Assembly: GCA_040753835.1 (NCBI GenBank)
Contig: JBFMDM010000001.1
Span: forward strand, 1 to 63,633
Length of the DNA stretch: 63,633 nt
From: Planctomycetota bacterium
Lineage (GTDB): Bacteria > Planctomycetota > MHYJ01 > JACQXL01
Direction of reading: 5' to 3'
The notes beneath the pieces are model-generated. The model made no database searches, was not told the DNA's origin, and worked only from the letters and a program-made list of their open reading frames with translations. The translations under genes were made by a program, and so were the position numbers. Below are positions 1 through 60,439 of this stretch, one piece after another; position 1 is the first letter of the stretch; the number at the start of each line of letters is the position of its first letter.

Positions 1-377
1 TCGTATTCGGGACTTTGCTGACCGGACTGGGCTCGGCTGATGTGCTTTACTTAACAGACATCAGCGCGGATATCCCTTACACTTCCTTTGACCTGTCGGC
101 CTGGATTCCGGCGCAGGCAAAGGCAGTGATTCTGCAACTGGGAATTTTTAACCAGTCATTTGCCAATGGCCGGGCGTTCTTCAGGGTGCGGACTAACACG
201 GACCAGCGCGATGCCCTTGGGGTCGGCGTTGTCCCGGGCGCCAGTTCGCAGGTGGTAAATCAGGGGATTGTGCCGCTAACCAGCGCGAGAAGCATAGAGT
301 ATGCTCTCGAAAGTGTAGGAGGTCCCTGGTCGGCGACCTTGACGCTGTGGGTGACGGTGGTGGGATATATAGTATGA
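1..377 (+). CDS. 3' part of a B-family fibre-like protein gene (5' end off-window); conserved ~120-aa C-terminal domain
   Basis: Frame 3 is open from base 3. VFGTLLTGLGSADVLYLTDISADIPYT...GGPWSATLTLWVTVVGYIV aligns almost residue-for-residue with the C-termini of 27063-27929 and 59465-60439. Confidence 0.8.
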   Translation, partial: VFGTLLTGLGSADVLYLTDISADIPYTSFDLSAWIPAQAKAVILQLGIFNQSFANGRAFFRVRTNTDQRDALGVGVVPGASSQVVNQGIVPLTSARSIEYALESVGGPWSATLTLWVTVVGYIV

Positions 378-573
378 TTGTCCCGCTGGGACAATCAACT
401 ATAACTGGCAGTAACGTCGTAACTACCAGTAATCGTTTACCGTATAGCCCCGCTTTAGGCGGGATAAACTCCGAGCGTGGAACGTATAGTAGAAATACTA
501 TATGCTCTATGCTATTTGCATATCACCATCTTTTTACTTGACCCTGCGCATAATATTTGTGTAAAGTGCAAGG

Positions 574-1954: not shown

Positions 1955-2245
1955 CCCCGCACATAACTTGCATATGTATTATGTTTATCTAATACAGAGC
2001 AGAAAAACCGGGAAGTTTTATATCGGGTTTACACCTGATTTAAGAGACCGGCTTAATAAACATAATACAGGAAAAGTCACGGCTACCAAGGTCTATATAC
2101 CGTATGAATTGATTTATTATGAGGCGTATAAATCAAAAAGAGATGCCTTGACGCGCGAGCATAATCTCAAATATTTTGGACAAGGATTCAGCAGATTAAA
2201 GGAAAGAATTAAATACTGTATCCATAATGCAAGTTATGTGCGGGG
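1955..2245. mobile_element. GIY-YIG gene unit bracketed by 19-bp perfect terminal inverted repeats of the CACATAA-MITE family
   Basis: ccccgcacataacttgcat (1955-1973) is the exact reverse complement of atgcaagttatgtgcgggg (2227-2245). Another left terminus starts at 2249. Confidence 0.6.
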
Positions 2246-2270
2246 TAACCCCGCACATAAAGATTGTTGA
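1974..2270 (+). CDS. Small GIY-YIG nuclease-family protein (URI domain only)
   Basis: MYYVYLIQSRKTGKFYIGFTPDLRDRLNKHN...YEAYKSKRDALTREHNLK carries the GIY/YIG, R, and E..N motifs. The internal ATG at 1974 is in frame with track ORF 1911-2270. Confidence 0.85.
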   Translation: MYYVYLIQSRKTGKFYIGFTPDLRDRLNKHNTGKVTATKVYIPYELIYYEAYKSKRDALTREHNLKYFGQGFSRLKERIKYCIHNASYVRGNPAHKDC

Positions 2271-3884: not shown

Positions 3885-3972
3885 AATCTGCGAAATCTGT
3901 TTACTCGCAGTTCGCACGAAGTAAGTTACTGCGAGTTATCCCGACGAATGTCGGGAGTAATCTGTGGTTTCC
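3885..3972. repeat. Right arm of the perfect 88-bp inverted repeat
   Basis: Exact reverse complement of 2348-2435. Confidence 0.95.
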
Positions 3973-4056
3973 CGTCCGTGGCGCCGCTTCTGGCGAGCCC
4001 CGCCCTTCGGGGCGTGAGTCCGCCCTTTGGGGTTCCTCCCACTGGAACCCGGTGGG

Positions 4057-11928: not shown

Positions 11929-12023
11929 CCCCGCACATAAGATTTATTAAGCGTTTATAACGGCTGATAAATACTTGATTCAAACCATCTGCATAATTGG
12001 TTATACAAATATTATGTGCGGGG
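11929..12023. mobile_element. 95-bp CACATAA-MITE copy
   Basis: Termini are ccccgcacataa (11929-11940) and ttatgtgcgggg (12012-12023). The interior is nearly identical to 21483-21577. Confidence 0.85.
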
Positions 12024-12998: not shown

Positions 12999-14219
12999 TT
13001 ATTGCGCTGTGGAATAGGCGTCCAGCGCCAGTTGTTTGGGCGAATATCTCCGCCATTGGGCCGAGGCGCGGTATTTGGCATAGGCCATTGCTCCGACCAT
13101 CACCGCATTATCCGTGCAGTGTCTTCCGGCCGGCAGGAAGAGTTTGATATTATTTTCTTTTGCTGCCGCCTGGAATCTTTCCCTCAAACGGCCGTTGCAG
13201 GCCACGCCGCCGCCCAGGACAATCGCACTGCATTTTTTAATCTTTGCGGCCTGGAACGTCTTTTGAACCAGTGTATCCACAACTGCTTCCTGGAACGAGG
13301 CGCAGATATCAGGGATATTCAGCCCTTTCTTGAGCGGGGTCCTGGCCGAAGCGTTCTGGCCCTTGCAATGATACAGCGCCGCGGTCTTCAGGCCGCTGAA
13401 ACTAAAGCCCAGCCCGCCCGTACGACCGTACGGTCGGGCGGGCGAACCCTCTGACGCAATGCCTCTGGGGAATTTAATCGCGCTGGGGTTGCCCTTGCGG
13501 GCAATTTGTTCTATTATCGGCCCGCCCGGATAACCCAATCCTAATATTTTGGCTACCTTATCAAACGACTCTCCAGCCGCATCATCGCGCGTTCTGCCGA
13601 CGGTGCGATAATCTGCGGGCGATTTCACATAGAACAAACTGGTATGCCCACCCGAAACTACAAGACCTATATACGGATAAATTAGTTCTTCGGTCAAATT
13701 GTTCACATAAAGATGCGCCTCAATATGGTTGATTGGTATCAACGGCTTATCCAGGAGCCAGGCCAGGGTCTTGGCAACCGAGACGCCCACAAGCAGCGCG
13801 CCAATCAATCCGGGCCGGTTGGTTACAGCCACAGCCGAGATGTCTTTTAACTCAAGATGCGCTCCGCTCCACTCAACTGGGGCGAGAGCGTCCCGCTTCA
13901 GCGGATGAGTGCGGGGCGCGTCTTTCAGCGCCTTTATTAATATTGGCAGTATGGATTCAATATGCGCCCGGCAGGCAATCTCAGGCACCACGCCGCCGTA
14001 TACGCTGTGCAGGTCAATCTGGGACAGGACCACATTCGCCAGGATTTCTTTACCGTTGCGGATAATACTTACTGCCGTCTCGTCGCACGAGGTCTCAATG
14101 CCCAGGCAGACAAACCCAGCCCCTGCGCGCGAAGCCGCAGCAAAGTTCCGATTATTTCGGGGCAGGGGCTGGGCAAAAGGTTTGGTTTTATTCGCGCGAT
14201 TGGTTTTGATTCGCACCAT
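12999..14219 (-). CDS. tsaD: tRNA N6-adenosine threonylcarbamoyltransferase TsaD (start uncertain; ~40-aa N-terminal extension in the ORF)
   Basis: Motifs LGIETSCDETAVS, GGVVPEIACRAH, VSGGHT and FSFSGLKT. It carries an in-frame palindrome at 13413-13442. Confidence 0.9.
   Translation of the reverse strand: MVRIKTNRANKTKPFAQPLPRNNRNFAAASRAGAGFVCLGIETSCDETAVSIIRNGKEILANVVLSQIDLHSVYGGVVPEIACRAHIESILPILIKALKDAPRTHPLKRDALAPVEWSGAHLELKDISAVAVTNRPGLIGALLVGVSVAKTLAWLLDKPLIPINHIEAHLYVNNLTEELIYPYIGLVVSGGHTSLFYVKSPADYRTVGRTRDDAAGESFDKVAKILGLGYPGGPIIEQIARKGNPSAIKFPRGIASEGSPARPYGRTGGLGFSFSGLKTAALYHCKGQNASARTPLKKGLNIPDICASFQEAVVDTLVQKTFQAAKIKKCSAIVLGGGVACNGRLRERFQAAAKENNIKLFLPAGRHCTDNAVMVGAMAYAKYRASAQWRRYSPKQLALDAYSTAQ
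13413..13442. repeat. In-frame GC-rich palindrome inside tsaD
   Basis: cccgcccgtacgaccgtacggtcgggcggg is read on the minus strand as SPARPYGRTGG, just before the conserved FSFSGLKT. Confidence 0.8.
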
Positions 14220-19965: not shown

Positions 19966-21369
19966 TTAGACATTCTTTAATAAGATTGTCAGGTTATCTA
20001 TTTCTTCTTTCGTGTTCATCTCCGTCACGCACAGGAGCATCGCATTCTTTAGTTTGGGATAGAATCTCTTAAGCGCCAGGCCGCCGATGATGCCGGCTTT
20101 CAGGAGTTTCTTGTTTATCTGTTCAGGATTCTTGGGGCATTCTATTACGAACTCGTTGAAGAATGGCCCGTTAAATGCGAGTTTGAATCCCGGGATTTTG
20201 GATATTTGGTCGGCCGCATAATGCGCCTTTTGAAGGCACAAGGTGGCCACTTGCTTTATGCCCTCTTTGCCCACGGCCGCCAGGTATATGGCGGTCCGGA
20301 TGGCGCAGAGCGCCTGGTTGGAGCAGATATTGGAGGTGGCCTTTTCCCGGCGGATGTGCTGTTCGCGCGTGGACAGGGTCAGGACAAACCCGCGTCTGCC
20401 CTTGTTGTCCACGGTCTCGCCCACAATCCGGCCGGGCATCTTGCGGATATGCGCCATTTTGGCGGCCATAAACCCGAGATGCGGGCCGCCGAAGGACATC
20501 CGGTTACCCAATGATTGTGCATCGCCCACAACTATATCCGCTCCGTATCCGCCTGACCCATCCAGTCGGGCAGGTTCTCCGGGCGGTTTCAGCAGTCCCA
20601 GGGAAATCGGATTGACCACGTTGATGAGCATAACACCTTCGTATTTGCGCACGAGTTTGGCGATTTGGTCAACCGGCTCTACGATGCCGAAGAAATTCGG
20701 GGATTGGTAAGCCACGCAGGCAACGTTTCCGTCCAGTTTCTTTTCCAGCGCCTCCAATGAGGTCGCGCCATCAGCGAAATCTATTTCTATGATTTTGATA
20801 TTTAAATCCTCAAGCCAAGTCCGGACCACAGCCCGGTATTCCGGATGGATGGACTTGGAGAGGATGACCTTCCCGCCCGAACGACCGGCGTCGTCCGGTC
20901 GGGCGGGTTTCTTGTCGGTGGTATGAAGCGCCATCAGGACGGCCTCGGCCAGGGCCGTGGCGCCGTCGTAAAGCGAGGCGTTGGAGACCTCCATGCCGGT
21001 CAATTCGCACATCATTGTCTGGTATTCAAAGATGGTGGTCAGCGCGCCCTGGCTGGTCTCGGGCTGGTACGGGGTGTAGGCGGTATAGAATTCGCTCCGG
21101 GCGGCCAGGTGGTCCACCACGGCCGGCACGAAGTGGTTGTAACATCCCGCGCCCAGGAAAGACGTTGTTTTGGCGGCATCGGTGTTTTGTGCGGCCAATT
21201 CCGAGAGGAGTTTGGTCGCCTCCGGCTCGCTTAAGGCCTTGGGCAGATTAAGCGGCTGATTGAGGCGCAGTTGCGTCGGGATGCTCTTAAAAAGTTCGTC
21301 AATATTGGCGGCTCCGCTGGCTTTGAGCATCTCGCGGATGTCGGACTCTGTATGAGGGATATATGGCAT
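19966..21369 (-). CDS. gcvPA: Glycine dehydrogenase (decarboxylating) subunit 1, with two in-frame palindrome insertions
   Basis: MPYIPHTESDIREML..., FLGAGCYNH, YTPYQPE.SQG and TREQHIRREKATSNICSNQAL. Confidence 0.9.
   Translation of the reverse strand: MPYIPHTESDIREMLKASGAANIDELFKSIPTQLRLNQPLNLPKALSEPEATKLLSELAAQNTDAAKTTSFLGAGCYNHFVPAVVDHLAARSEFYTAYTPYQPETSQGALTTIFEYQTMMCELTGMEVSNASLYDGATALAEAVLMALHTTDKKPARPDDAGRSGGKVILSKSIHPEYRAVVRTWLEDLNIKIIEIDFADGATSLEALEKKLDGNVACVAYQSPNFFGIVEPVDQIAKLVRKYEGVMLINVVNPISLGLLKPPGEPARLDGSGGYGADIVVGDAQSLGNRMSFGGPHLGFMAAKMAHIRKMPGRIVGETVDNKGRRGFVLTLSTREQHIRREKATSNICSNQALCAIRTAIYLAAVGKEGIKQVATLCLQKAHYAADQISKIPGFKLAFNGPFFNEFVIECPKNPEQINKKLLKAGIIGGLALKRFYPKLKNAMLLCVTEMNTKEEIDNLTILLKNV
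20872..20907. repeat. In-frame GC-rich palindrome inside gcvPA
   Basis: cccgcccgaacgaccggcgtcgtccggtcgggcggg is read as KPARPDDAGRSGG. A degenerate second copy lies at ~20551-20575 (EPARLDGSGG). Confidence 0.8.
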
Positions 21370-21387: not shown

Positions 21388-21686
21388 CCGCATTATTCAT
21401 AAATTTTTATACAATTATGTTGAAAGCCATTCCATAGTTGTTATATGGTGCGGGTAATCCAGCACATAACCTCTACTGCTTGCCCCGCACATAAGGTTTA
21501 TTAAGCATTTATGATGGCTAATAAATAACTTCCTCAAATCATCTGCATAATTGGTCATACAAATATTATGTGCGGGGTGAAGGCTACCCAAGTTGAAGGT
21601 TATGTGCTGGGCTACTTTATTGTATAGGCACAAACATCTAATACACTTTGTTACCATTTTTAGCATTGTATGAATAATCCAGATTA
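21388..21686. repeat. ~300-bp composite repeat (termini GCATTATTCATA.../...TATGAATAATCCAGATTA) between gcvPA and gcvH, with nested elements
   Basis: It shares its ends with 45075-45293 and 46002-46209. It contains the hairpin element 21459-21610 (CCAGCACATAAC.../...GTTATGTGCTGG), which is itself split by the 95-bp MITE at 21483-21577. Confidence 0.8.
21483..21577. mobile_element. 95-bp CACATAA-MITE copy nested in another repeat
   Basis: Termini are ccccgcacataa and ttatgtgcgggg. The interior matches 11929-12023 with few substitutions. Confidence 0.85.
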
Positions 21687-23675: not shown

Positions 23676-25532
23676 ATGGAAAACATCATATTCTGCGGCG
23701 GATGCGGGACTTTTATCTCGGCGGCTGATATTTCAGCCGGCAAGGCATCCAAGATAAACAATATCTATTATTGCCAAAAATGTTCCACTGGCGCCCAGGC
23801 CCGGCCGGCCCAAGCCAGACCGCCGGCCCCTGCCGCAAGGCCGGCCCAGCCAGCCACGGCGCGGCCGGCTGCAATGCCGCCATTAGAGCGAGCCTCGCCT
23901 TCGGGCAGGCCGCCTCAGCAGAGACCGGCGCCCAAGCCGACTGTGCCTGTTGCACGACCCGTAGCGCCTGGCACACCGGCGGCAATGCCAGTTTCTCCGG
24001 TCCAAGCGCAAAGACCAGCGGCGCCAAGACCGGTTGCGCCCGCAAGGCAATTGGATGAGACGGTCGCCATCAACCAGCCCGCTCGGCCGTCCGCTCCGCC
24101 TTCCCGCTCTGGTGGGGTAGCGCGGCCCGCTGTGCCGCAGCAGAAAACCCAGAAGGTAATGCCTTCTACGCCGCCCAGGGTATCCCAGACCTCGCGTATC
24201 AGACAGCCCCCCGCCCCTGCGGGCGAGGCTCGCCCTTTAGGGCGGCAAGTTACCGCGGATACAGGCGGCGATGATATTGAGATTTTGGACGACGCCTCAT
24301 CCCGCAGGTTCGGCAAGGCAAAGACAGGCAAGGGCGGAAATAAGAAAATCTACCTGATTGCCGGAGCGGCCGCGGTTGTAATCATAGGCATTATTATCTG
24401 GTCGGTGTTGAGCGGTATGGCAACGGCGGCCAGGGAAAAAGAGGAGGCCGCGCGCCAGGCAAAACTCAAAAAGCAGTTTAACGCCATAGAAGAGGTTGAA
24501 AAGGACTTTGCGGACGACCCGCAGAAAATTATTGACAAGATAAAGGAACTGTCCGGCGAACTAAAAGGCACCAAATACGAGGATGAGATAAAGAAAAAGG
24601 AGGAAAACGCAAAGGCCCTGATAGAAATACTGGATAAGATAAATGAACTGGAAAAGCCGGTGGAAACAGCCGAGGAGGTTGACCAAAGGATAAAGGACAT
24701 TAGCAAACTTAAGAGCAATCCGGCCGCGGCAACCAGCAAGACGGCCGACAATAAACTCAGGGAATTGCTCAATGACTTCAGGAAAAAGCAGAAAAAGTTA
24801 GCCGAAGAGGAAAAGAAGGCGCACGAGGCGCAGGAGGCCGCGGAGAAAAAGGCCTACGAGGATTTCAAGGCAAAGATAGAACTCCTGAGAAACAGGCGGG
24901 ACTGGAAGGAGATGCTCAGGGAATGCGACATCCTTCTCGGGCGTCCCAACGGCCTGCAATACCAGGAGGAGGCGGATAAAATCAAGGAGGAGGCCAAGGC
25001 GGCGCTGGAAGAAGACCAGGAAAAGGCCAGGAAGCGCAAGGAATGGCAGGTCCTTAACGACGATATATCAAAATGGGACAGGTCCGGAGATTCCAAGGCG
25101 GAGATTTACGTGGACGAGGACAAGATACTCCTGAAGAACACGGCTTCGGCCGGCAACCGGGGCGCCGTTGCCAGCATTGCCAATAACAACGAGGGCGAGG
25201 GCTGGCAGGATTTTACGATGACCCTGGAATTCAAGGTGGTGAAGGGTTCTTTTGAAATGTTCCTGCGGGGCGGATTCCAGTCCTTTAATGTTCCGGGGCT
25301 TGGAAACTTTAGCGTCTTCAGCGGCATTCCCATTCCCTTCCCGAGGAAATTCAAGGACGAGTGGCAGAAATACACCATAGAACTGAAGGGCAAGAAACTG
25401 ACCATCAGCGGGACCGGCCTGAACGAACCCAAGGTGAGCGATGTCCCCGAGGGAAAGGGCGGAATCGGCATCAACGTAAAGGGCGGCGATGAAATAATCG
25501 TGAAAGAACTGAAAGTGAAGGTGATAGAATAA
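23676..25532 (+). CDS. Zinc-ribbon / Pro-Ala-rich / single-TM / coiled-coil protein with C-terminal DUF1080-like (LamG jelly-roll) domain
   Basis: CGGCG...CQKC ribbon, a long P/A-rich tract, TM IYLIAGAAAVVIIGIIIWSVL, a K/E-rich coiled coil, and C-terminal WQDFTMTLEFKV...KELKVKVIE. Confidence 0.7.
   Translation: MENIIFCGGCGTFISAADISAGKASKINNIYYCQKCSTGAQARPAQARPPAPAARPAQPATARPAAMPPLERASPSGRPPQQRPAPKPTVPVARPVAPGTPAAMPVSPVQAQRPAAPRPVAPARQLDETVAINQPARPSAPPSRSGGVARPAVPQQKTQKVMPSTPPRVSQTSRIRQPPAPAGEARPLGRQVTADTGGDDIEILDDASSRRFGKAKTGKGGNKKIYLIAGAAAVVIIGIIIWSVLSGMATAAREKEEAARQAKLKKQFNAIEEVEKDFADDPQKIIDKIKELSGELKGTKYEDEIKKKEENAKALIEILDKINELEKPVETAEEVDQRIKDISKLKSNPAAATSKTADNKLRELLNDFRKKQKKLAEEEKKAHEAQEAAEKKAYEDFKAKIELLRNRRDWKEMLRECDILLGRPNGLQYQEEADKIKEEAKAALEEDQEKARKRKEWQVLNDDISKWDRSGDSKAEIYVDEDKILLKNTASAGNRGAVASIANNNEGEGWQDFTMTLEFKVVKGSFEMFLRGGFQSFNVPGLGNFSVFSGIPIPFPRKFKDEWQKYTIELKGKKLTISGTGLNEPKVSDVPEGKGGIGINVKGGDEIIVKELKVKVIE
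24211..24245. repeat. In-frame string of three mini-hairpins (GCCC..GGGC, GCGAG.CTCGC, CGCCC..GGGCG)
   Basis: ccgcccctgcgggcgaggctcgccctttagggcgg is read as PAPAGEARPLGR. The same modules are intergenic at ~2318-2349, 22150-22190 and 61845-61900. Confidence 0.65.
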
Positions 25533-27062: not shown

Positions 27063-27929
27063 TTAGACAATGTATCCGACGACAGTGATATAGAGTGTAA
27101 GCGTTCCAACCCATGGCCCACCCACGGACTCCAAAGCATACTCAATCGTCCTCGGACCTGTGCCAACTACCAGCGGAACAATCCCCTGATTAGCCACCTG
27201 TGAATTCGCGCCCGGAATCAAACCCAAGCCGAGCGCATCGCGCTGGTCAGTGTTAGTTCTCACCCTGAAGAACGCCCGGCCTGTGGCAAACGACTGGTTG
27301 AAGATTCCCAGTTGCAGAATCACTGCCTTGGCCTGCGCCGGAATCCAGGGACTCAAATCAAAGACCGTGTAGGGAATATCCGCGCTGATGTCGGTCAGGT
27401 ACAGCGCCTCTACCGAAGGCGTCAGGAACGACATCCGGTCCCCACCGCCCACTCCGGGCGCTAACTTCTCGGCCGTGACTGCTCCATTCTGTATTTCACC
27501 TGTGCCGATGGCATTGTTAGCGATTTTCCCTTGCGTGATTGTATTTGTGGCAATCTTGGCATTGGTCACTGCGCCATCCGCAATCTTGAGCGCTGTTACC
27601 GCGCCGCTGGGCAGTTTATCGCCGGTCACCGCGCCATTGGCAATCTTATCGGCGCTTACCGCGTCGGTTGCCAGTTTGGTGTTGGTCACCGAACCGTCCA
27701 TCAGCGGAATCACCGAGACATCGCCGCCTAATTTGGCCAGTGTAACCGCGCCGTCCGCAATATCCTCGGTCCGGACTTGGCCCGGAGCGATATCCACTGA
27801 CTTGATGGTCTCGTCCTTGATTTTCTCCGAGGTGACTGCTTCGTTGGCAATCTTCTCCTCGGTTACCGCGCCCTCAACGATAGCAGGCGTCGTAACTTTA
27901 CCGTCAAAATATTTTGGTCTATATGTCAT
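27063..27929 (-). CDS. B-family protein, copy B1: ~14 eleven-residue repeats + GGGDR hinge + conserved C-terminal domain
   Basis: SD AAGGGGGTGA lies 5-6 nt before the ATG at 27929 (the track start at 27938 is GTG). Repeats look like GAVT.EKIA./DGAVTNAKIA. The C-terminus matches 1-377 and 59465-59830. Confidence 0.8.
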   Translation of the reverse strand: MTYRPKYFDGKVTTPAIVEGAVTEEKIANEAVTSEKIKDETIKSVDIAPGQVRTEDIADGAVTLAKLGGDVSVIPLMDGSVTNTKLATDAVSADKIANGAVTGDKLPSGAVTALKIADGAVTNAKIATNTITQGKIANNAIGTGEIQNGAVTAEKLAPGVGGGDRMSFLTPSVEALYLTDISADIPYTVFDLSPWIPAQAKAVILQLGIFNQSFATGRAFFRVRTNTDQRDALGLGLIPGANSQVANQGIVPLVVGTGPRTIEYALESVGGPWVGTLTLYITVVGYIV

Positions 27930-34429: not shown

Positions 34430-35431
34430 ATGAAGTTCGGCGAGTTTGGGATATTTCCGGTCAGCGACGGGTTTTTCCGCTTAGACGGCGGCGCGATGTT
34501 CGGCGTGGTGCCCCGTGTGCTCTGGGAAAAACGCGCTCCCCCGGATGCCAAGAACCGCATCCGGATGGGCCTCTGGTGCCTGCTTATCCAAGCCGCAGGC
34601 AAGAATATCCTCGTTAATACCGGCATCGGCAATAAATACACCCTCCGCTTCAACGAGATTTATGGGATTAAGCATCCGCCCTCGCTCATCTCGTCCCTGG
34701 CCGAACATAATGTCAAGCCAACCGATATTGATATGGTGATTCTGACCCACCTGCATTTTGACCACTGCGGCGGGAATACGGTTTATCAGGACCCGGATGC
34801 CGGGCTGGCTTATCCGCGGTCATCGCCGCTTTTGCCGGCCTTTCCCAATGCCCGGTATATTGTGCAGGAAGCGGAGTGGCAAAGGGCCGTTAATCCCAAC
34901 GAGCGCACCAGGGCCAGTTACATCAGGGAAAACATTATACCTATCAGGGATGCCGGACTGCTGGATTTGATTGAGGGCAATAAGGAACTCCTGCCCCCGC
35001 CCCCGCCGGCTCCGCCTGGCGAGGCGAGCGAAGGCGTCGCCCTTCGGCCCGCTCCGCTCTCGCTGAAGCGAGGCGAGGGCGAACCTCGCCCTGTTGGGCG
35101 GGAGGTTCGCCCTAATGGCGGCGGCGTCTCGGTCCGGGTTACCGGCGGACATACCAGGGGGCACCAGATTGTCTTTATAGAGTCCGGCGGCAAAAAGGCG
35201 GTCTTCTGGAGCGACCTGATTCCCACTACCGCGCACCTTGACCTGCCTTATATTATGAGTTACGACCTTTTTCCCGAAGAGACCTTAGAGGAGAAGAAAC
35301 ATCTGGTGGAGCAGGCCATAAGCGAGAAATGGCTCTGTTTTTGGGAGCACGACCCGGTGGTGAATTGCGGGTATATCCAGCGGAACGAAGAGGGCAGGCC
35401 GGTGGTTCAGCCGATATCTGAAAAACCTTGA
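34430..35431 (+). CDS. MBL-fold metallo-hydrolase with a ~45-aa in-frame hairpin-module insertion
   Basis: THLHFDHCGG and GGHTRGH motifs. An insertion (PPPPAPPGEASEGVALRPAPLSLKRGEGEPRPVGREVRPNGG) lies between conserved blocks. Confidence 0.8.
   Translation: MKFGEFGIFPVSDGFFRLDGGAMFGVVPRVLWEKRAPPDAKNRIRMGLWCLLIQAAGKNILVNTGIGNKYTLRFNEIYGIKHPPSLISSLAEHNVKPTDIDMVILTHLHFDHCGGNTVYQDPDAGLAYPRSSPLLPAFPNARYIVQEAEWQRAVNPNERTRASYIRENIIPIRDAGLLDLIEGNKELLPPPPPAPPGEASEGVALRPAPLSLKRGEGEPRPVGREVRPNGGGVSVRVTGGHTRGHQIVFIESGGKKAVFWSDLIPTTAHLDLPYIMSYDLFPEETLEEKKHLVEQAISEKWLCFWEHDPVVNCGYIQRNEEGRPVVQPISEKP
34990..35130. repeat. Composite in-frame insertion of GC-rich hairpin modules inside the MBL hydrolase gene
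   Basis: Stems such as AGGGCGA-acc-TCGCCCT and GCGAG...CTCGC. The same words occur in the adjacent intergenic region 35480-35590. Confidence 0.7.
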
Positions 35432-35691
35432 CTTTTTATCCGGTTAGGGATATAATAGAATTTAACGAAAAGAATGCCCGCCTGCGTCCCCCTGGGACTA
35501 CGGCGCGGCGTCGCCTTTTGAGGCGAACCTTCCGCCTTAGGCGCCGCCTCTGGCGAGCATCGCCCTTCGGGGCGGGAGGTCTAACTGGCCTCAAAGGAAA
35601 GTCCCGACAAAAACTGTCGGGATAAGATACTGTAACGGACTTTCCCGAAAGCATTCTGGGAATTCCTAACAGTATCTAAAAGGAGATTTAT

Positions 35692-36390
35692 ATGATAAAT
35701 AAGTTATTAGCCGGAGCCGTGGCGGTTCTGACCCTGGCCGGTTGCGCCGGGACACGGGTCTCCTCAACCTATTCGGTTGATACCACGCCGGTAAAGACGT
35801 ACGCGCCGCCGCCGGCCGCCATCAAGGTGAAGACCATCGCGGTCCTGCCTTTCAAGGATAAGACCGCGAACAGCCCGATTAAAGGCGATGTGGGTAGTAT
35901 GGCGGTTGACCAGTTGACCACGTTGTTGGTCAATACCGAGCGGTTTTCGGTGATTGAGCGTGAGCGGCTGGATGCGGTCCTGGCCGAGCAGGGCCTGGCC
36001 GGCAAGGGTATTGTGGATTCGGCTACCGCGGCACAGGTCGGCAAGATTCTGGGCGTTGACCTGATTTTCACCGGCGCGGTTACCAACTGGGAGGTCAAGG
36101 AAACGCGCTCGGCCACCTTTGTTCTGGTGGGCGGCGGGTCTGAAAAAGCCATTGATATTGACCTGGCCCTGGACGGGCGGATTATTGATACGACCACAGG
36201 CCAGATTTATGTCGCCGATTCGGGCGAGATTAAGCGCCAGGAAAAGGTCTCCTCCACGGCTATCTTGAGTTTTTCGCCGGGCGGCTATGTCAAACTGGAC
36301 CAGTCCGTGGCCGGCAAGCAACTGCGTTTGGCTTTGGATAATATGCTTTCCAAAATGGTTCCCAAGGTGGATGCCAAATTCAGCAGGTAG
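35692..36390 (+). CDS. CsgG-family lipoprotein (curli-type secretion channel family), copy 1
   Basis: Lipobox LTLAGC, plus LPFKDKT...MAVDQLTTLLVNTERFSVIERERLDAVLAEQ...KILGVDLIFTGAVTNWE. Confidence 0.75.
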   Translation: MINKLLAGAVAVLTLAGCAGTRVSSTYSVDTTPVKTYAPPPAAIKVKTIAVLPFKDKTANSPIKGDVGSMAVDQLTTLLVNTERFSVIERERLDAVLAEQGLAGKGIVDSATAAQVGKILGVDLIFTGAVTNWEVKETRSATFVLVGGGSEKAIDIDLALDGRIIDTTTGQIYVADSGEIKRQEKVSSTAILSFSPGGYVKLDQSVAGKQLRLALDNMLSKMVPKVDAKFSR

Positions 36391-36397
36391 ATGCAGA

Positions 36398-37192
36398 ATG
36401 AAAAGAAGCGGATTGCTGGTTTTTGCCGTTTGCTTTTTGGTTGTCGCTTTAATATCGGGATGCGCAACCGCTGGAACCAGGACTACTTACGAGGACGACG
36501 ACAGCAAATGCGGGATTTACCCGCCGCCTCCGGCTAATTTCGTCCGGAAGCGGATAGCGATAATCCCTTTTAAGGACAAGACCAACCAGCAGTATACCAA
36601 GACCGACCTGGGCTCGCAGGCCGTGGATATCGGGATAACCTTATTGCTCAACGCCGAGCGGTTTGATGTGGTGGAGCGTGAGCGGCTGGATGCGGTCCTG
36701 GCCGAGCAGAAACTGGTCGGCATCGTTGACCCTGAGACCGCGGCCAGGGCCGGGAAGATTCTGGGCGTGGACCTGATACTTACCGGCGCGGTAACCAATT
36801 TTGAGATAAAACACTCAAAGACCGGCGGGAGTTTCGCCCTGCCACGGATGGGCAAGATACCGGCCTTTGACATAGAAAAGCGGACATCCATTATGGAAAT
36901 TTTGATGGCGCTTGACGGCCGGGTGATTGAGGTGGAAACCGGCCGGGTTCTCTTTGCCGGCTCGGGTGAAATCAAGCGGGAGGAAAGGGCGGATAACTGG
37001 GGCATCATCCTGGAAACCGGGGCGCATGCTTCATCCAGGGAGAAAATCAGGATAGACCAGAACGCGGCCGGCAAGCAATTGCGCTTTACCCTGGACGCGC
37101 TGATTAAGAAGATTATTCCCAAGGTTGACGCGGCCTACGGCGCAGCGCCGGCTCCGGCAACGCCGGCCCAGGTCATTGAAACAAAACCCTGA
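36398..37192 (+). CDS. CsgG-family lipoprotein, copy 2
   Basis: Lipobox LISGC, plus IPFKDKT...RFDVVERERLDAVLAEQ...KILGVDLILTGAVTNFE. The start was taken at the internal ATG 36398. Confidence 0.75.
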   Translation: MKRSGLLVFAVCFLVVALISGCATAGTRTTYEDDDSKCGIYPPPPANFVRKRIAIIPFKDKTNQQYTKTDLGSQAVDIGITLLLNAERFDVVERERLDAVLAEQKLVGIVDPETAARAGKILGVDLILTGAVTNFEIKHSKTGGSFALPRMGKIPAFDIEKRTSIMEILMALDGRVIEVETGRVLFAGSGEIKREERADNWGIILETGAHASSREKIRIDQNAAGKQLRFTLDALIKKIIPKVDAAYGAAPAPATPAQVIETKP

Positions 37193-37721: not shown

Positions 37722-37850
37722 AGACATTCTATAAAGAATCCCGCCCAAAAGGGCGAGTTTCGCTATAGGCGACAAGGAAAATCCCGCCATTTGGCGTGGT
37801 CTAAGTCGCTGTAAGGGCTAAAGCCCAACAGCGGCTAAGAGGAGTTACCG

Positions 37851-38378
37851 ATGAGAAACAAGAATAACCGCGGACTTGCCTCGCACATAAGCGATGATGA
37901 AATATTGAGGAATGAAAGTTCCCCGAATTTGGCGGTGAAGGATACAAAACGGCACGGCCATTTATGTGCGGGATTCACCCTGATTGAACTGCTGATGGTG
38001 GTAACGATTATCGGGATACTGGCCGCGATAGCGGTTCCGAAATTTGTCGGGCTTGGGAAAAAGGCGTCTATAAAGGCGTCTATTGCAGAGATAAGGGTTA
38101 TTGGCTCGGCGCTGGAGCGATACGAGATGGACAACCAGATGTTTCCCTCAACCGAACAGGGCCTTAAGGCGCTTATTGAAAAGCCGTCCACCTCGCCGGT
38201 GCCTAGGGACTGGAACGGCCCTTATTTAAGCGAGGATATTAACGACCCGTGGGATAATCCGTATCAATACCGGAATCCGCCCCAGAGCGGCCGGACCGAT
38301 TACGACCTCTGGTCCAAGGGGCCGGACGGTACGGACGGAACTGCAGATGATGTTACAAACTGGAAAAAAGAGAAATAA
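37851..38378 (+). CDS. gspG: Type II secretion major pseudopilin GspG with a MITE-encoded extended leader
   Basis: SD AAGAGGAG, GFTLIELLMVVTIIGILAAIAVPKF, and the GspG C-terminal block WNGPYL...DPWDNPYQY...DLWSKGPDG. Confidence 0.85.
   Translation: MRNKNNRGLASHISDDEILRNESSPNLAVKDTKRHGHLCAGFTLIELLMVVTIIGILAAIAVPKFVGLGKKASIKASIAEIRVIGSALERYEMDNQMFPSTEQGLKALIEKPSTSPVPRDWNGPYLSEDINDPWDNPYQYRNPPQSGRTDYDLWSKGPDGTDGTADDVTNWKKEK
37879..37972. mobile_element. CACATAA-MITE copy inserted in-frame in the gspG leader
   Basis: Termini are cctcgcacataa (37879-37890) and ttatgtgcggg (37962-37972). Removing it leaves MRNKNNRG|FTLIELL. Confidence 0.75.
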
Positions 38379-38748
38379 CCCCCCCCTGATTAACCGGGCC
38401 GGAATAACACTTCTTGAGGTTCTGGTTGCCATTTCCATCTTTGCCGTCTGCATTGTGGCGATTTTCCAGGCGTTCATCAGCGCCTTTGACGCCCAGTTAA
38501 GGGCTGAGAGTTATTCAAGGGCGCTGATGGTGGTTTCGGATGCGCTGGAATACGCCGAGGAGTTTAAGGTGCCACAGGGCGCGGAAGAATCAACTGAAGG
38601 CGCCACCCGCATCAGTTGGGAATTCACCCAGAATGATATTGAGGACTACCAGAAACTGAAAGAGATTGTCGTTGACACAACCTGGGAACACGGCAAGCGA
38701 AACGGCAGATTCTCTTTAACAACCTATTTCTGGAACCCGCAGAAGTAA
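38347..38748 (+). CDS. Minor pseudopilin (GspI-like)
   Basis: Prepilin-type N-terminus RAG|ITLLEVLVAISIFAV; 133 aa; overlaps the gspG end. Confidence 0.6.
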   Translation: MMLQTGKKRNNPPLINRAGITLLEVLVAISIFAVCIVAIFQAFISAFDAQLRAESYSRALMVVSDALEYAEEFKVPQGAEESTEGATRISWEFTQNDIEDYQKLKEIVVDTTWEHGKRNGRFSLTTYFWNPQK

Positions 38749-38755
38749 CGATAAA

Positions 38756-39523
38756 ATGAAGAAGACAGGATTAAGGGGACTTACCTCGCACATAAACGGG
38801 GATGAAACAACGCCGGAGGCAAATGTGTCAGCCCTGAATCTTACGCCAAAAGGTGTAGTGAGACGCGGTTATTTATGTGCGGGGTTCACTCTTATAGAAC
38901 TGCTGATAGCCAGCGTCTTGACGGCCTTGGTTGCCTTGGCCGCATATCACGCCTTTAGCCAGGGGATTCTAATCTGGAAAAAGGGCCAGGAAAACACCAA
39001 TCAAGACAAGGCGCTGATGGCAATGGAAAGGATATCACGCGAACTGAAGAATATGTTTTCCTTTGAACCGGTCGGGTTCAGCGGCGAGGAGACGAAGGTT
39101 TCCTTTCCCTGCCTGGCCTATAGATATGATTGGATAGAGCCGAACGAGGAAGCGATAATAGAGCCGGTCTCGGCCACGGCAGAAACCGCGCCGTTGCCGC
39201 TTATTACCAAGGCCACCTATGAATATAATCAGAGCGAGGAGAAACTTTCGCGCCTTGAAGAGGTATATGCCTATCCGGACCTGGAGGAGTTAAAGACCAA
39301 GACGGACTGGGCGAAGAAGGACTCCAGCCGCATTATCCTGGAGGATGTGGAGATACTGAAATTCTCCTACGCCATCACCAAGACGCCGGAACTCAGTTTT
39401 TCCAACAGCGTCATCAACTCCGGCATTCCGTATGCCGTGAAAATAGAGTTGAAACTGAAGAGTATGAAAGACGCCTTAACGCGCACCATACTTGTCCCGG
39501 TTATCAAACCGCCTATAAACTGA
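38756..39523 (+). CDS. Minor pseudopilin (GspJ-like) with a MITE-encoded extended leader
   Basis: GFTLIELLIASVLTALVALAAY, and a leader paralogous to that of gspG (RGLTSHINGDE...YLCAG). Confidence 0.65.
   Translation: MKKTGLRGLTSHINGDETTPEANVSALNLTPKGVVRRGYLCAGFTLIELLIASVLTALVALAAYHAFSQGILIWKKGQENTNQDKALMAMERISRELKNMFSFEPVGFSGEETKVSFPCLAYRYDWIEPNEEAIIEPVSATAETAPLPLITKATYEYNQSEEKLSRLEEVYAYPDLEELKTKTDWAKKDSSRIILEDVEILKFSYAITKTPELSFSNSVINSGIPYAVKIELKLKSMKDALTRTILVPVIKPPIN
38784..38884. mobile_element. CACATAA-MITE copy inserted in-frame in the GspJ-like leader
   Basis: Termini are cctcgcacataa (38784-38795) and ttatgtgcgggg (38873-38884). Removing it leaves MKKTGLRG|FTLIELL. Confidence 0.75.
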
Positions 39524-45293: not shown

Positions 45294-45409
45294 GTATTAC
45301 AGAACTCCGGCAAACGCAAGATTTATCCCGATTTAATATTTCTACGTTGCAGATTCCGGCAAAACCGCTATTTTACACGGAAACCAGGATTATAAAAATC
45401 CCCCTTGAT

Positions 45410-45505
45410 CCCGCACATAATATTTGTGTAAAATGCAGGATATCTAAGTAGATGTGGCAATTATTTCTATTCCCTGGAGGCGAATAATAATGCTTATGTG
45501 CGGGG
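45410..45505. mobile_element. 96-bp CACATAA-MITE copy
   Basis: Termini are cccgcacataa (45410-45420) and ttatgtgcgggg (45494-45505). Its left part (cacataatatttgtgtaaaatgcagg) matches a half-copy at 541-573. Confidence 0.8.
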
Positions 45506-46001: not shown

Positions 46002-46209
46002 CCCGCATTATTCATAAATTTTTATGCAATTATGCTAAAGGCCGTGCATAGTTATTATATTATGCGGGCAATCCCGCACATAACTTCTGCTTTGGGCTAC
46101 CTAAGTTGAAGGTTATGTGCGGGGCTGGGCTATAAGATAAGTATAAAGATATAAGACGTCTTGGTATTATCTTAAGGGTAATATGGATAATCCAGATTAG
46201 CCATAAGGA
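46002..46209. repeat. Composite repeat, ATTATTCATA family, copy 3, containing a 52-bp CACATAA hairpin element (46073-46124)
   Basis: It starts cccgcattattcataaatttttatgcaattatg and ends atggataatccagatta. Its 3' end supplies the last 9 codons and the stop of prmC. Confidence 0.8.
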
Positions 46210-59464: not shown

Positions 59465-60439
59465 CTACATTATATAACCGACGACTGTAATGTATAGCGT
59501 CAATGTAGCAGACCATGGACCGCCCACGGACTCCAACGCGTACTCAATCGTCCTCGGTCCTGTTCCCACCACCAGCGGCACTATCCCCTGATTGGCCACC
59601 TGCGAATTCGCGCCCGGAATCAAACCCAAGCCGAGCGCGTCGCGCTGGTCAGTATTAGTCCGGACCCTGAAGAACGCCCGGCCTGTGGCAAATGCCTGGT
59701 TGAACATCCCCAGTTGCAGAATCACGGCCTTGGCCTGCGCCGGAATCCAGGGACTCAAATCAAAGGCCGTATAAGGAATATCCGCGGAGATGCCGGTCAG
59801 GTAAAGCACATCAGCCGAACCCAGTCCGGTGAGTAATGTCCCGAAGGTAAAGCGGTCTCCGCCTCCGATACCAGCCGCCAATTTCTCCTGCGTCACCGCG
59901 CCGTTCTGGATTTTCTCCGTACTGACACTGCCTACTGCCAACTCACTACTGCCTACTGCTCCAGATTGTATTTCGCTGGAGCCAATCGCATTAGCCGCAA
60001 TCTTTGAGGCCGTAACTGCGTTATTCGCTAACTTGGCATTGGTTACGGCTCCATCCACCAAATCCTCTGTTCTGACGCTCTGGTCTGCGACCTTTTCTCT
60101 GGTAATTGCGCCGTTGGCAATCTTCTCTGTGGTTATTGCCCCGGCCACTATCTTGCCTGAGGTAATTGAGCCGTCTGCAATCTTTTCGTTAGTCACGCTG
60201 GCCGATTGCAACTTATCATTGGTTACTGCCTTACTGGCTATTTTTACGGCGCTAACTGAACCGTCTACTAATTCATCAGTTCCGACCACACCATCGGCAA
60301 TCTTGCGCCTGGTTACCACACCGTCCTTGATATGTTTTTCCTCAATAGCGTCATTGGCTATTTTCTCGCCCGTGGCCGATTGCGGGCTTAGGTGTTTTGT
60401 TTTGATTTCGTTGAGTCGGTCGTACAAAGTCCTTGCCAT
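59465..60439 (-). CDS. B-family protein, copy B3: ~16 eleven-residue repeats + GGGDR hinge + conserved C-terminal domain
   Basis: SD AAAGGAG. Repeats look like DGSITSGKIVAGAITTEKIANGAITREKVAD. The C-terminal ~120 aa are near-identical to 1-377 and 27063-27420. Confidence 0.85.
   Translation of the reverse strand: MARTLYDRLNEIKTKHLSPQSATGEKIANDAIEEKHIKDGVVTRRKIADGVVGTDELVDGSVSAVKIASKAVTNDKLQSASVTNEKIADGSITSGKIVAGAITTEKIANGAITREKVADQSVRTEDLVDGAVTNAKLANNAVTASKIAANAIGSSEIQSGAVGSSELAVGSVSTEKIQNGAVTQEKLAAGIGGGDRFTFGTLLTGLGSADVLYLTGISADIPYTAFDLSPWIPAQAKAVILQLGMFNQAFATGRAFFRVRTNTDQRDALGLGLIPGANSQVANQGIVPLVVGTGPRTIEYALESVGGPWSATLTLYITVVGYIM

What the first reader, a model, noticed from the sequence alone, without database searches (positions are those of the whole stretch)
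37851..38884. MITEs inserted in-frame exactly at the prepilin cleavage site of two pseudopilin genes, creating ~45-aa leaders
GspG reads MRNKNNRG-[LASHISDDEILRNESSPNLAVKDTKRHGHLCAG]-FTLIELL, and the GspJ-like protein reads MKKTGLRG-[LTSHINGDETTPEANVSALNLTPKGVVRRGYLCAG]-FTLIELL. The bracketed parts are encoded by 94- and 101-bp elements (37879-37972 and 38784-38884). Their termini, CCTCGCACATAA / TTATGTGCGGG(G), belong to the CACATAA-MITE family found intergenically and around the GIY-YIG gene. Deleting each element restores a canonical short basic leader ending in Gly before FTLIELL.
The element's own 3' end (..GCGGGR) recreates the -1 Gly codon. A prepilin peptidase could therefore still cleave at G|F and discard the MITE-encoded peptide, making the leader a phenotypically silent landing pad. 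Two independent hits at the same codon position suggest either target preference for the GGR/TTC junction or selection retaining only such insertions.
Basis: partly seen in the sequence, partly recalled or inferred. Interest (0 to 1): 0.7.

Follow-up and report, generated by a model that had tools for sequence, protein, structure and literature searches.

The report
Mobile repeats lengthening pseudopilin leader peptides
Two neighbouring pseudopilin genes each carry a ~100-bp mobile inverted-repeat element inserted in frame where the leader peptide is normally cut off, and the element's own end rebuilds the cut site, so the genes probably still work with leaders five times the usual length.

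Summary
gspG (37851-38378) and a gspJ-like gene (38756-39523) carry 99- and 105-nt in-frame, stop-free inserts between a canonical 8-residue leader and FTLIELL. Each insert is a 95- or 101-bp element with 12-bp inverted ends (CCTCGCACATAA / TTATGTGCGGGR) plus 4 nt.

The same ends bound at least five other copies in the window. The closest syntenic relative (GspG 85% identical) has both sites empty.

A more distant relative, and three unrelated metagenomic prepilin genes, carry separate insertions of the same family at the same junction. These show clean 4-bp target duplications (TTCA or TTTA).

The geometry explains the "restored" cut site. The duplicated TTYA re-supplies the Phe+1 codon, and the element's last three bases (GGG/GGA) become Gly-1.

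Only 6.7% of family copies from other contexts would be in frame and stop-free at such a site, yet every prepilin-site copy is. That argues for translation through the element and for selection, not strong targeting.

Cleavage of the 41- and 43-residue leaders is inferred, not shown. The two window copies share derived features and are probably sister copies, not independent hits.

A side finding: the same inverted ends also flank tiny GIY-YIG nuclease genes, a possible autonomous partner.

The parts
37838..37844 (+). Shine-Dalgarno-like AGAGGAG, 6 nt upstream of the gspG ATG
   Evidence: Read directly from the sequence. Equivalent motifs precede the canonical ATG in L001 (AGGAGG) and L002 (GGAGGA).
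37851..38378 (+). gspG major pseudopilin gene, 175 aa with a 41-residue leader
   Evidence: Pfam T2SSG E=6.5e-30 and N_methyl. The identical NCBI protein P0001 is named GspG, Planctomycetota MAG. dN/dS is 0.037 against L001.
37851..37874 (+). Original short basic leader MRNKNNRG of gspG
   Evidence: The orthologs P0003/L001 read MNNKNNRG|FTLIELL.
37875..37878 (+). CTTG, the position of the 5' copy of the 4-bp target duplication, here degenerate (expected TTCA)
   Evidence: Comparison with L002, L092, L093 and L095, where TTCA/TTTA flank both sides.
37879..37973 (+). 95-bp CACATAA-family inverted-repeat element in gspG (left end 37879-37890, right end 37962-37973)
   Evidence: In frame and stop-free. 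Interior GC is 0.465, against 0.28-0.34 for the AT-rich ~95-bp intergenic copies at 11929, 21483 and 45409. The two ends pair as a stem when folded.
37974..37977 (+). TTCA, the 3' copy of the target duplication: Phe+1 codon plus the first base of Thr+2
38347..38748 (+). Third pseudopilin (gspI/H-like, ...NRAG|ITLLEVL) without an insertion
   Evidence: N_methyl match. The motif scan of the window finds only three class III signal peptides.
38756..39523 (+). gspJ-like minor pseudopilin gene, 255 aa with a 43-residue leader
   Evidence: N_methyl plus weak T2SSJ. Syntenic orthologs in L001 and L002 have short leaders MIKIKLSG and MPKIRLSG. dN/dS is 0.088.
38756..38779 (+). Original short leader MKKTGLRG of the gspJ-like gene
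38780..38783 (+). CTTA, degenerate 5' flank, shared in form with gspG (CTTR)
38784..38884 (+). 101-bp CACATAA-family element in the gspJ-like gene (left end 38784-38795, right end 38873-38884)
   Evidence: Interior GC is 0.519. The two ends pair as a stem, z = -3.8.
38885..38888 (+). TTCA, the 3' copy of the target duplication (Phe+1 codon plus A)
1955..2245 (+). 291-bp member of the same family whose interior is a 92-aa GIY-YIG nuclease ORF (1974-2251). A solo inverted end follows at 2249-2260, making a 27-nt perfect hairpin.
11929..12023 (.). Intergenic 95-bp family copy, AT-rich interior
21483..21577 (.). 95-bp family copy (88% identical to the 11929 copy), nested inside a short related element (about 21458-21610)
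45409..45505 (.). 97-bp family copy flanked by CTTGA on both sides
46072..46124 (.). 53-bp short family copy

Best explanation
A family of small non-autonomous inverted-repeat elements has landed in the class III signal peptides of two pseudopilin genes of a type II secretion/type IV filament operon. Family members are about 50-110 bp long, have 12-bp ends YCCCGCACATAA, and make a 4-5-bp target duplication. The organism is a Planctomycetota MAG.

Insertion duplicated TTCA, which is the Phe+1 codon plus one base. In that frame the last three bases of the element (GGG/GGA) become the Gly-1 codon. The G|FTLIELL cleavage motif is therefore rebuilt automatically at the 3' junction.

Because element plus duplication is a multiple of three (99 and 105 nt) and free of stops, translation starts at the original ATG and reads through. 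This gives 41- and 43-residue hydrophilic, net-positive leaders.

The prepilin peptidase is then expected to cut after the new Gly and release an unchanged mature pseudopilin. If so, the insertion is nearly neutral. Only such self-healing, open-frame insertions survive selection, which explains why the same junction is occupied repeatedly in different lineages.

Shown here: insertion, empty sites, recurrence, target duplication, open frames, relaxed evolution of the insert, and purifying selection on the mature parts. Inferred: start-codon use, membrane topology, peptidase cleavage, and the identity of the mobilising enzyme.
For: 1. Empty sites. The syntenic locus L001 (NDK-gspG-gspI-gspJ) has MNNKNNRG|FTLIELL and MIKIKLSG|FTLIELM. 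Its GspG is 85% identical to the window protein.
2. Independent insertion of the same family in the gspG of a 57%-identical relative, seen in three assemblies (L002-L004): GGATTCA[CCCCGCGCATAA...TTATGTGCTGGG]TTCACG, a TTCA duplication.
3. A DNA scan of metagenomes for 'right end + G|FTxIE' found three further unrelated prepilin genes (L092, L093, L095) with both ends and TTTA/TTCA duplications. It also found allelic variants of the L002 event, L096 and L097.
4. The family is mobile and multi-copy: 15 end motifs in the window against 0.33 expected, and a nested copy. Exact 4-bp duplications occur in 17 of 93 copies found (92 after merging reverse-complement duplicates) against 1.6 expected.
5. 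Only 12 of 180 (6.7%) element-orientation combinations from other contexts would be in frame and stop-free at a G|F site. All prepilin-site copies are, including the 4 events found by DNA pattern alone: L092, L093, L095 and the L096/L097 allele of the L002 event. Under no selection that has probability 0.067^4, about 2e-5.
6. L002 and L092 inserts have no in-frame ATG, GTG or TTG, so the upstream ATG must be used. Shine-Dalgarno motifs precede the canonical ATG in filled and empty alleles.
7. Between the L002 and L096 alleles, 5 of 96 nt differ inside the insert against 4 of 435 in the rest of the gene (Fisher p=0.012). All 3 amino-acid changes are in the insert, as expected for a discarded peptide.
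8. The mature parts are under strong purifying selection: dN/dS 0.037 and 0.088.
9. All long leaders are net positive, +2 to +6, which fits the positive-inside topology of prepilins (PMC4471445).
Against: - No experimental evidence exists for translation, processing or function. 41-43-residue leaders exceed the 6-26 residues documented for class III signal peptides (PMC4471445).
- Both window inserts do contain in-frame GTG codons that would give canonical short leaders (MKDTKRHGHLCAG, MRRGYLCAG), so internal initiation cannot be excluded for these two genes. In one other locus (L007, second pilin) the upstream frame is closed and an internal ATG appears to be used.
- The 5' flank in the window (CTTG/CTTA) does not match the 3' TTCA. 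The target duplication is therefore inferred for these two copies from other lineages only.
- Most family copies (71 of 92) show no clean duplication.
- dS between the window and L001 is saturated, so the purifying selection measured may largely predate the insertions.
Confidence: 0.78

Rival explanations
1. The element acts as a new 5' region. Translation starts at an in-frame GTG inside the element (gspG MKDTKRHGHLCAG|F, gspJ MRRGYLCAG|F), which gives a normal-length leader. The upstream ATG and the first ~30 codons would then be an untranslated or irrelevant remnant.
For: - In-frame GTGs lie 13 and 9 codons before Phe+1, and the resulting leaders are short and basic.
- In L007's second pilin the upstream frame is closed by a stop in the inverted end, and an internal ATG gives an open leader.
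Against: - No Shine-Dalgarno motif precedes the gspG internal GTG, while a strong one (AGAGGAG, 6-nt spacing) precedes the canonical ATG.
- The upstream 28-34 codons stay open in both window genes and in every other prepilin-site copy, against a 6.7% baseline. That would be unnecessary under this model.
- L002 and L092 inserts have no in-frame start codon at all.
Confidence: 0.1
2. The insertions impair the genes. The long leaders block SRP targeting or peptidase recognition, so the two pseudopilins are non-functional or on the way to becoming pseudogenes.
For: The leaders are longer than any documented. No functional data exist. MAG lineages do lose systems.
Against: - Both ORFs are intact, with full-length Pfam domains and dN/dS of 0.04-0.09.
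- The same type of insertion persists with an open frame in several lineages and in several samples of one lineage.
- A disabling insertion would not need to be in frame and stop-free.
- The rest of the operon is intact: gspK, pilM/N and an M-like gene.
Confidence: 0.08
3. The element is removed or skipped at the RNA or translation level, by intron-like excision or by ribosomal bypass from the first Gly codon to the second, as in T4 gene 60 or the mitochondrial 'byp' elements.
For: - The inverted ends form a 12-bp stem that brings the two Gly codons together.
- In gspG both Gly codons are GGA.
Against: - Take-off and landing codons do not match in the other cases: GGA/GGG, GGC/GGG.
- No stop codon follows the first Gly.
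- No Rfam family matches.
- The invariably open frames would be unnecessary if the insert were skipped.
Confidence: 0.02
4. The long leader is an ancestral, conserved feature of this pseudopilin lineage, and its resemblance to the repeat family is coincidental.
For: None beyond the intact reading frame.
Against: - The closest homologs (85% and 67% identical) have 7-8-residue leaders.
- The insert ends match, at 11-12 of 12 bases, a repeat found at least seven times in the window and in many phyla.
- The interiors of the inserts are unrelated between lineages.
Confidence: 0.01

Closest known systems
Rickettsia palindromic elements (RPEs) and other bacterial MITEs found fused in frame inside ORFs (ERIC, 107-bp Correia, YPAL)
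   Same: Small palindromic or inverted-repeat mobile DNA of about 100-150 bp, inserted in frame in conserved protein-coding genes, translated with the host protein and tolerated (PMC10969869, PMC2229807).
   Different: - Here the insert lies in a peptide that is cut off, rather than on the surface of the mature protein.
- The element's terminal bases rebuild the processing site.
- The same junction is hit repeatedly in unrelated lineages and by at least two, possibly three, repeat families.
- No sequence similarity to RPEs was looked for or expected.
Class III (prepilin) signal peptides with naturally long leaders (type IVb pilins, Flp)
   Same: A hydrophilic leader ending in Gly, followed by F/M-T-L-I-E and a hydrophobic helix, cut on the cytoplasmic side by a prepilin peptidase (PMC4471445).
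   Different: Documented leaders are 6-26 residues and are lineage-conserved. Here they are 41 and 43 residues, arise by recent insertion into a type IVa/GspG-type gene, and contain the old leader plus a second Gly.
REPINs / REP-BIME elements mobilised by RAYT transposases
   Same: About 100-bp units made of two inverted short repeats with variable spacers. Head-to-head and tail-to-tail arrangements both occur, for example the hairpin at 2234-2260 (PMC3116915, listed).
   Different: - The individual 12-mer is not itself a palindrome.
- Clear 4-5-bp target duplications are present, and REPINs make none (from my own knowledge).
- No RAYT gene was seen between or near the repeats. The only ORF bounded by the ends is a GIY-YIG nuclease.
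Free-standing GIY-YIG homing endonuclease genes and standalone Slx1-like bacterial GIY-YIG proteins
   Same: A minimal GIY-YIG domain of about 85-92 aa with no auxiliary domain, as described for prokaryotic Slx1-like members (PMC1564403). It is wedged into short intergenic gaps, as in L102 between wzm and wzt.
   Different: Homing endonuclease genes are not bounded by inverted repeats and leave no target duplications. Here each GIY-YIG gene is tightly framed by a 12-17-bp inverted repeat that co-varies with the protein, and has ORF-less miniature relatives.

Membership tests
Bacterial MITE (miniature inverted-repeat transposable element) | Small size (under about 300 bp) and no transposase ORF | tested here: met
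   95 and 101 bp. The only reading frame through them is the host gene's.
Bacterial MITE (miniature inverted-repeat transposable element) | Terminal inverted repeats shared by a multi-copy family | tested here: met
   12-bp ends. There are 15 copies of the 9-mer core in the window against 0.33 expected, and 83 loci in GTDB genomes.
Bacterial MITE (miniature inverted-repeat transposable element) | Target-site duplication flanking the element | tested here: inconclusive
   The family shows exact 4-bp duplications in 17 of 93 copies against 1.6 expected. TTCA/TTTA flank the elements in L002, L092, L093 and L095. The two window copies have CTTG/CTTA on the left and TTCA on the right, so the duplication is not visible there.
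Bacterial MITE (miniature inverted-repeat transposable element) | Presence/absence polymorphism (empty orthologous sites) | tested here: met
   L001 has both sites empty. L002 has gspG filled by a different copy and gspJ empty.
Bacterial MITE (miniature inverted-repeat transposable element) | A related autonomous element with the same ends that encodes the transposase | tested here: inconclusive
   The same ends bound a GIY-YIG ORF in the window, L041, L083 and L099. Variant ends bound homologs in L099, L101 and L102. GIY-YIG is not a recognised IS transposase, and no DDE or HUH gene was seen between end pairs up to 1.5 kb apart.
In-frame intragenic palindromic elements (RPE-like behaviour) | Inserted in frame, without stops, in a conserved protein-coding gene that stays intact | tested here: met
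In-frame intragenic palindromic elements (RPE-like behaviour) | Sequence homology to the Rickettsia RPE families | not tested
   No RPE sequences were compared. The host is a different phylum and the ends differ, so membership is not claimed.
Class III signal peptide / type IV pilin-like protein | N-terminal methylation motif: Gly-1, Phe+1, Glu+5 and a hydrophobic helix | tested here: met
   PF07963 matches at residues 39-62 and 41-64. G|FTLIELL is read directly.
Class III signal peptide / type IV pilin-like protein | Short hydrophilic leader (6-26 residues documented) | tested here: not met
   The leaders are 41 and 43 residues, against 6-26 in PMC4471445. They are hydrophilic and net positive.
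Class III signal peptide / type IV pilin-like protein | Cleavage by a prepilin peptidase after Gly-1 | not testable with these tools
   Needs biochemistry. No peptidase A24 gene was looked for in the window.
Programmed translational bypass (T4 gene 60, mitochondrial byps) | Matching take-off and landing codons, a stop after take-off, and no need for an open frame in the gap | tested here: not met
   Codons match only in gspG (GGA/GGA). The others read GGA/GGG or GGC/GGG. There is no stop after take-off, and the gaps are always open.
REPIN / REP-RAYT system | Each repeat unit is itself a short palindrome, and a RAYT (Y1 HUH) gene is flanked by the repeats | tested here: not met
   The 12-mer is not self-complementary. 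The only ORF flanked by the repeats is a GIY-YIG. The window was not exhaustively scanned for RAYT.

The most novel reading that the evidence does not exclude
The 95-bp elements are miniature derivatives of a previously undescribed class of very compact prokaryotic mobile element. That class would be a roughly 250-290-bp unit holding only an 85-92-aa standalone (Slx1-like) GIY-YIG nuclease gene, framed by 12-17-bp inverted repeats that co-vary with the protein. It spreads across phyla (Planctomycetota, Patescibacteria, Bacteroidota, Gammaproteobacteria, Bifidobacterium). Because the ends finish in ...CGGG, members of this and similar repeat families can 'self-heal' the Gly-1|+1 junction of class III signal peptides. 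This would make prepilin leaders a general safe harbour for selfish DNA.
Probability: 0.35. Interest if true: 0.8.

Novelty: new variant of a known kind. Interest (0 to 1): 0.6.

Why it matters
- **A natural test of leader tolerance.** If the long-leader precursors are processed, these genes show that the prepilin peptidase and SRP/Sec targeting tolerate leaders about five times the normal GspG length and of arbitrary sequence. The only requirements left would be Gly-1 and the hydrophobic helix. That is directly testable and useful for engineering type IV filament subunits.
- **A selection filter made visible.** A mobile element can persist inside an essential-looking gene at the one position where its product is thrown away and its own terminal bases rebuild the processing site.
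- **Annotation.** Pilin predictors and start-codon callers that expect short leaders will mis-call such genes.
- **A possible new mobile element class.** The link between the inverted ends and tiny GIY-YIG genes points to an unrecognised type of mobile element, widespread in uncultivated phyla.

Tried and rejected
- **Exact-protein look-up of the window GspG:** not on record.
- **Protein search with a 48-residue alignment of the long leaders, to find all LCAG|FTLIEL junctions:** useless, because E-values against 5.8 billion sequences are too strict (one hit at E=3.5). Replaced by a DNA pattern scan.
- **Rfam on the whole window:** only a tRNA, and no RNA family for the element.
- **Literature searches:** nothing relevant on MITE plus prepilin, on GIY-YIG plus inverted repeats or MITE, on YhbQ/COG2827, or on a GIY-YIG transposon.
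- **Is the G|F junction the family's preferred target?** Rejected. None of 83 GTDB loci is at such a site. Flanks are only loosely T/A-rich and end in A.
- **Are the interiors of the two window inserts homologous?** The 62% identity is at background level. Only the ends and subterminal parts are similar.
- **Integron attC-like sites:** the order of the core motifs is reversed, so rejected by inspection.
- **IS200/IS605-type insertion 3' of a fixed tetranucleotide:** rejected, because the flanks vary and duplications exist.
- **Translational bypass or RNA excision:** rejected (see rivals).
- **Same GIY-YIG protein in several genomic contexts as a mobility test:** P0137 gave a single context, so it was uninformative, although it revealed a fourth variant of the ends.
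- **L094 and L098 from the metagenome scan:** judged chance or solo-end matches. L094 is not a pilin and has no left end; L098 has no left end. Both were not counted.
Full report

The window is a 63,633-bp contig of a Planctomycetota MAG. The exact GspG protein is in NCBI as P0001.

At 37851-38378 and 38756-39523 lie two ORFs with T2SSG/N_methyl and N_methyl/weak-T2SSJ Pfam matches. They sit in an operon NDK-gspG-gspI/H-like-gspJ-like-gspK-pilM/N-M-like.

Both proteins read as a canonical 8-residue basic leader ending in Gly, then 33 or 35 extra residues ending in LCAG, then FTLIELL. The extra codons are bounded by CCTCGCACATAA and TTATGTGCGGG(A/G). The 9-mer core CGCACATAA occurs 15 times in the window against 0.33 expected.

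Further copies with the same ends are:
- 11929-12023 and 21483-21577, which are 88% identical to each other. The second is nested in a short related element.
- 45409-45505 and 46072-46124.
- A 291-bp version at 1955-2245, whose interior is a GIY-YIG ORF.

The corrections are that the elements measure 95 and 101 bp with symmetric 12-bp ends, and that the inserted DNA is 99 and 105 nt.

**2. Are these insertions?**

Yes. The nearest GspG homologs (85% identical, 141 aa) read MNNKNNRG|FTLIELL and MKNNRAG|FTLIELL.

The DNA of one of them (L001) is syntenic, with NDK-gspG-gspI-gspJ. Both junctions are uninterrupted, including the gspJ-like gene (MIKIKLSG|FTLIELM).

**3. Recurrence elsewhere.**

A 57%-identical GspG (P0005) comes from a syntenic groundwater locus assembled independently three times (L002-L004). 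It carries a different member of the same family at the same place: CGC GGA TTCA[CCCCGCGCATAA...TTATGTGCTGGG]TTCACG. This shows a clean TTCA duplication, and its gspJ is empty.

A metagenome scan for 'right end + Gly-Phe-Thr-x-Ile/Val-Glu' returned seven loci:
- L096 and L097 are alleles of the L002 event.
- L092, L093 and L095 are unrelated prepilin genes with both ends and TTTA, TTTA and TTCA duplications.
- L094 and L098 lack the left end (L094 is not a pilin) and were discounted.

In addition, two other GspG homologs (L005, L007) carry a different inverted-repeat family (CCCCGTTAGAGA...) at the same junction, with TTYA flanks. The gspI-like gene of L002 carries a 36-nt hairpin element between ...NSAG and ITLLEV.

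All these elements end in ...CGGG.

**4. Why is the cleavage motif restored?**

With a 4-bp duplication TTYA, whose first three bases are the Phe+1 codon, the last three bases of the element (GGG/GGA) are read as the codon just before Phe. That gives Gly-1. The duplicated TTYA plus the original downstream sequence restores F-T-L-I-E.

The insert stays in frame if element length + 4 is a multiple of three. This holds for 95+4, 101+4 and 92+4.

This is direct reading of the sequences.

**5. Targeting or selection?**

A scan of one genome per GTDB species found the family in 83 loci. They span Patescibacteria, Bacteroidota, one Gammaproteobacteria MAG with more than 20 copies, Planctomycetota/Brocadiia and a Bifidobacterium. 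None of these is at a G|F junction.

Among 199 ends, the flanking base -1 is A in 60%, and positions -4 to -2 are T/A-rich. TTCA (5) and TTTA (3) are used but are not the commonest; CATA, TATG, TTGA and TCAA are commoner. There is no G enrichment further upstream. The junction is therefore compatible with the element's loose preference, but is not a hotspot.

Only 12 of 180 element-orientation combinations from other contexts (6.7%) would be in frame and stop-free if placed at a G|F site. In contrast, all prepilin-site copies are open. That includes the four events found purely by DNA pattern, which is unbiased for frame: L092, L093, L095 and the L096/L097 allele of the L002 event. Under no selection the probability is about 2e-5.

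Selection for read-through is therefore the main filter.

**6. Which start codon?**

Strong Shine-Dalgarno motifs precede the canonical ATG in the window (AGAGGAG, 6-nt spacing), in L001 and in L002.

L002 and L092 inserts contain no in-frame ATG, GTG or TTG, so their proteins can only be made from the upstream ATG.

The window inserts do contain in-frame GTGs that would give short basic leaders, so internal initiation cannot be excluded there. However, it would not explain the preserved open frames. In L007's second pilin the upstream frame is closed and an internal ATG seems to be used, so both solutions may exist in nature.

**7. Is the inserted peptide dispensable?**

Between the L002 and L096 alleles the insert has 5 of 96 differences, against 4 of 435 in the rest of gspG (p=0.012). 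All three amino-acid changes lie in the insert.

Insert interiors are unrelated between lineages.

The mature parts of the window genes are under strong purifying selection against L001 (dN/dS 0.037 and 0.088). dS is saturated, so the timing relative to the insertion is unknown.

All long leaders are hydrophilic and net positive, +2 to +6. That fits the cytoplasmic location of prepilin leaders (PMC4471445).

The interior GC content of the two coding copies (0.47 and 0.52) is host-like. The three ~95-bp intergenic copies are at 0.28-0.34; the 53-bp copy at 46072 is 0.48. This is compatible with long residence under a no-stop constraint.

**8. Are the two window hits independent?**

Probably not. 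Three features point the same way:
- Both have the left-end variant CCTCG, which is not seen in any of the other 90 elements listed.
- Both have the same unusual left flank CTTR instead of TTCA.
- They share subterminal similarity (GATGAAA after the left end).

One copy most likely gave rise to the other within the genome, carrying a few flanking bases. That suggests recombination or gene conversion between the paralogous 5' ends, or repair templated on the filled paralog, rather than clean transposition.

This remains unexplained. An alternative is parallel selection removing the upstream G-F.

**9. What mobilises the family?**

No DDE or HUH transposase lies between any pair of ends up to 1.5 kb apart. 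The only ORF framed by the ends is an 85-92-aa GIY-YIG protein. This is seen in:
- the window, at 1955-2245;
- two units in one Patescibacteria MAG (L041, L083), which also holds at least five miniature copies;
- L099, with two units. One has CCCCGCACATAAT ends and one has CCCAGCACACAATTTCC;
- L101, with CCCTCACACCAATTG;
- L102, with CCCCACACTTAATTATT, wedged into a 20-nt gap between wzm and wzt.

The closest protein homologs even carry the ends translated in their called ORFs, for example ...DPAHNSH-MYYVY... and ...ASYVRG.

Such standalone GIY-YIG proteins were classed as prokaryotic Slx1-like minimal nucleases (PMC1564403). I found no paper describing them as inverted-repeat-bounded mobile units.

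That the GIY-YIG protein is the mobilising enzyme is an inference from architecture and co-occurrence only.

**10. Comparison with what is known.**

In-frame MITE insertions that are translated and tolerated are well documented: Rickettsia RPEs, ERIC, the 107-bp Correia element and YPAL (PMC10969869, PMC2229807). The general kind is therefore known.

Three things are new here:
- the position, in a cleaved class III leader;
- the self-restoring geometry;
- the recurrence across lineages and repeat families.

The resulting leaders of 41 and 43 residues exceed the documented 6-26.

I rate it a new variant of a known kind, with interest 0.6. Processing of the long leaders is the key untested step. 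The GIY-YIG link is the more novel lead, but it is only circumstantially supported.

Noticed in passing
window 1955-2260; also L041 4657-4904, L083 5278-5526, L099 2290-2620 and 2982-3275, L101 1975-2275, L102 1482-1768: Tiny GIY-YIG nuclease genes (85-92 aa) are tightly framed by 12-17-bp inverted repeats. The repeats are identical or related to the ends of the 95-bp elements and co-vary with the protein. This looks like an undescribed, very compact mobile unit with miniature derivatives.
   Followed up: partly
window 34430-35431 (insert about 35000-35125): The metallo-beta-lactamase-fold gene carries a 42-residue in-frame insert (PPPPAPPGEASEGVALRPAPLSLKRGEGEPRPVGREVRPNGG) that is absent from the L002 and L003 orthologs. 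The insert is built from a different GC-rich repeat family, with copies at 3980-4018, 24210-24248, 35540-35578 and 2315-2348.
   Followed up: partly
L002 8985-9025 (same in L003, L004, L096, L097): The gspI-like pseudopilin of the groundwater relative has a 36-nt hairpin element (CCCGCTCAAACGACCGAAGTCATTCGGTCGGACGGG) inserted between ...NSAG and ITLLEVL. It again ends in Gly. It resembles the GC-rich palindromes at window 5424-5459, 5982-6011, 13413-13442 and 20872-20907.
   Followed up: partly
L007 560-740: Two adjacent pilin genes on one 774-bp contig both carry the CCCCGTTAGAGA-family element at the leader junction. In the second, the upstream frame is closed by a TAG in the inverted end, and an internal ATG gives MNNKPKK...LSLTG|FTLIEIM.
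   Followed up: partly
window 21458-21610: Nested insertion. The 95-bp copy at 21483-21577 sits inside a short (about 55-bp) relative with ends CCAGCACATAA/TTATGTGCTGG, homologous to the 53-bp copy at 46072-46124.
   Followed up: partly
window 537-570 and 45404-45437: A 34-nt stretch that is 88% identical between the two places (CTTGAYCCYGCRCATAATATTTGTGTAAARTGCA). It overlaps the left end of the 45409 element and looks like a -35/-10 promoter, so elements of this family may carry or create outward or inward promoters.
   Followed up: no
window 2613-3113: A long array with 21-nt periodicity (10 or more overlapping copies, 60-80% identical) next to the GIY-YIG element. It is flanked by a 104-nt, 96%-complementary inverted repeat (2332-2435 / 3885-3988).
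   Followed up: no
window 6-277, 27070-27416, 59472-59845: Large dispersed repeats (245-300 nt, 82-87% identical, in direct and inverted orientation) with 30-nt periodic sub-repeats at 27555-27870 and 59882-60260. They are probably paralogous repeat-protein genes.
   Followed up: no
window 35692-37192: Tandem paralogous CsgG-like lipoprotein genes upstream of NDK and the pseudopilin operon (75-84% identical blocks). The arrangement is conserved in L002-L004.
   Followed up: no
L018 1441-1522; L016 5306-5388: Copies of the CACATAA family that lie in open frames near the N-terminus of long ORFs: an 894-codon downstream ORF in a Bacteroidetes MAG and a 204-codon one in a Planctomycetota MAG. N-terminal or signal regions may tolerate these elements more generally.
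   Followed up: no
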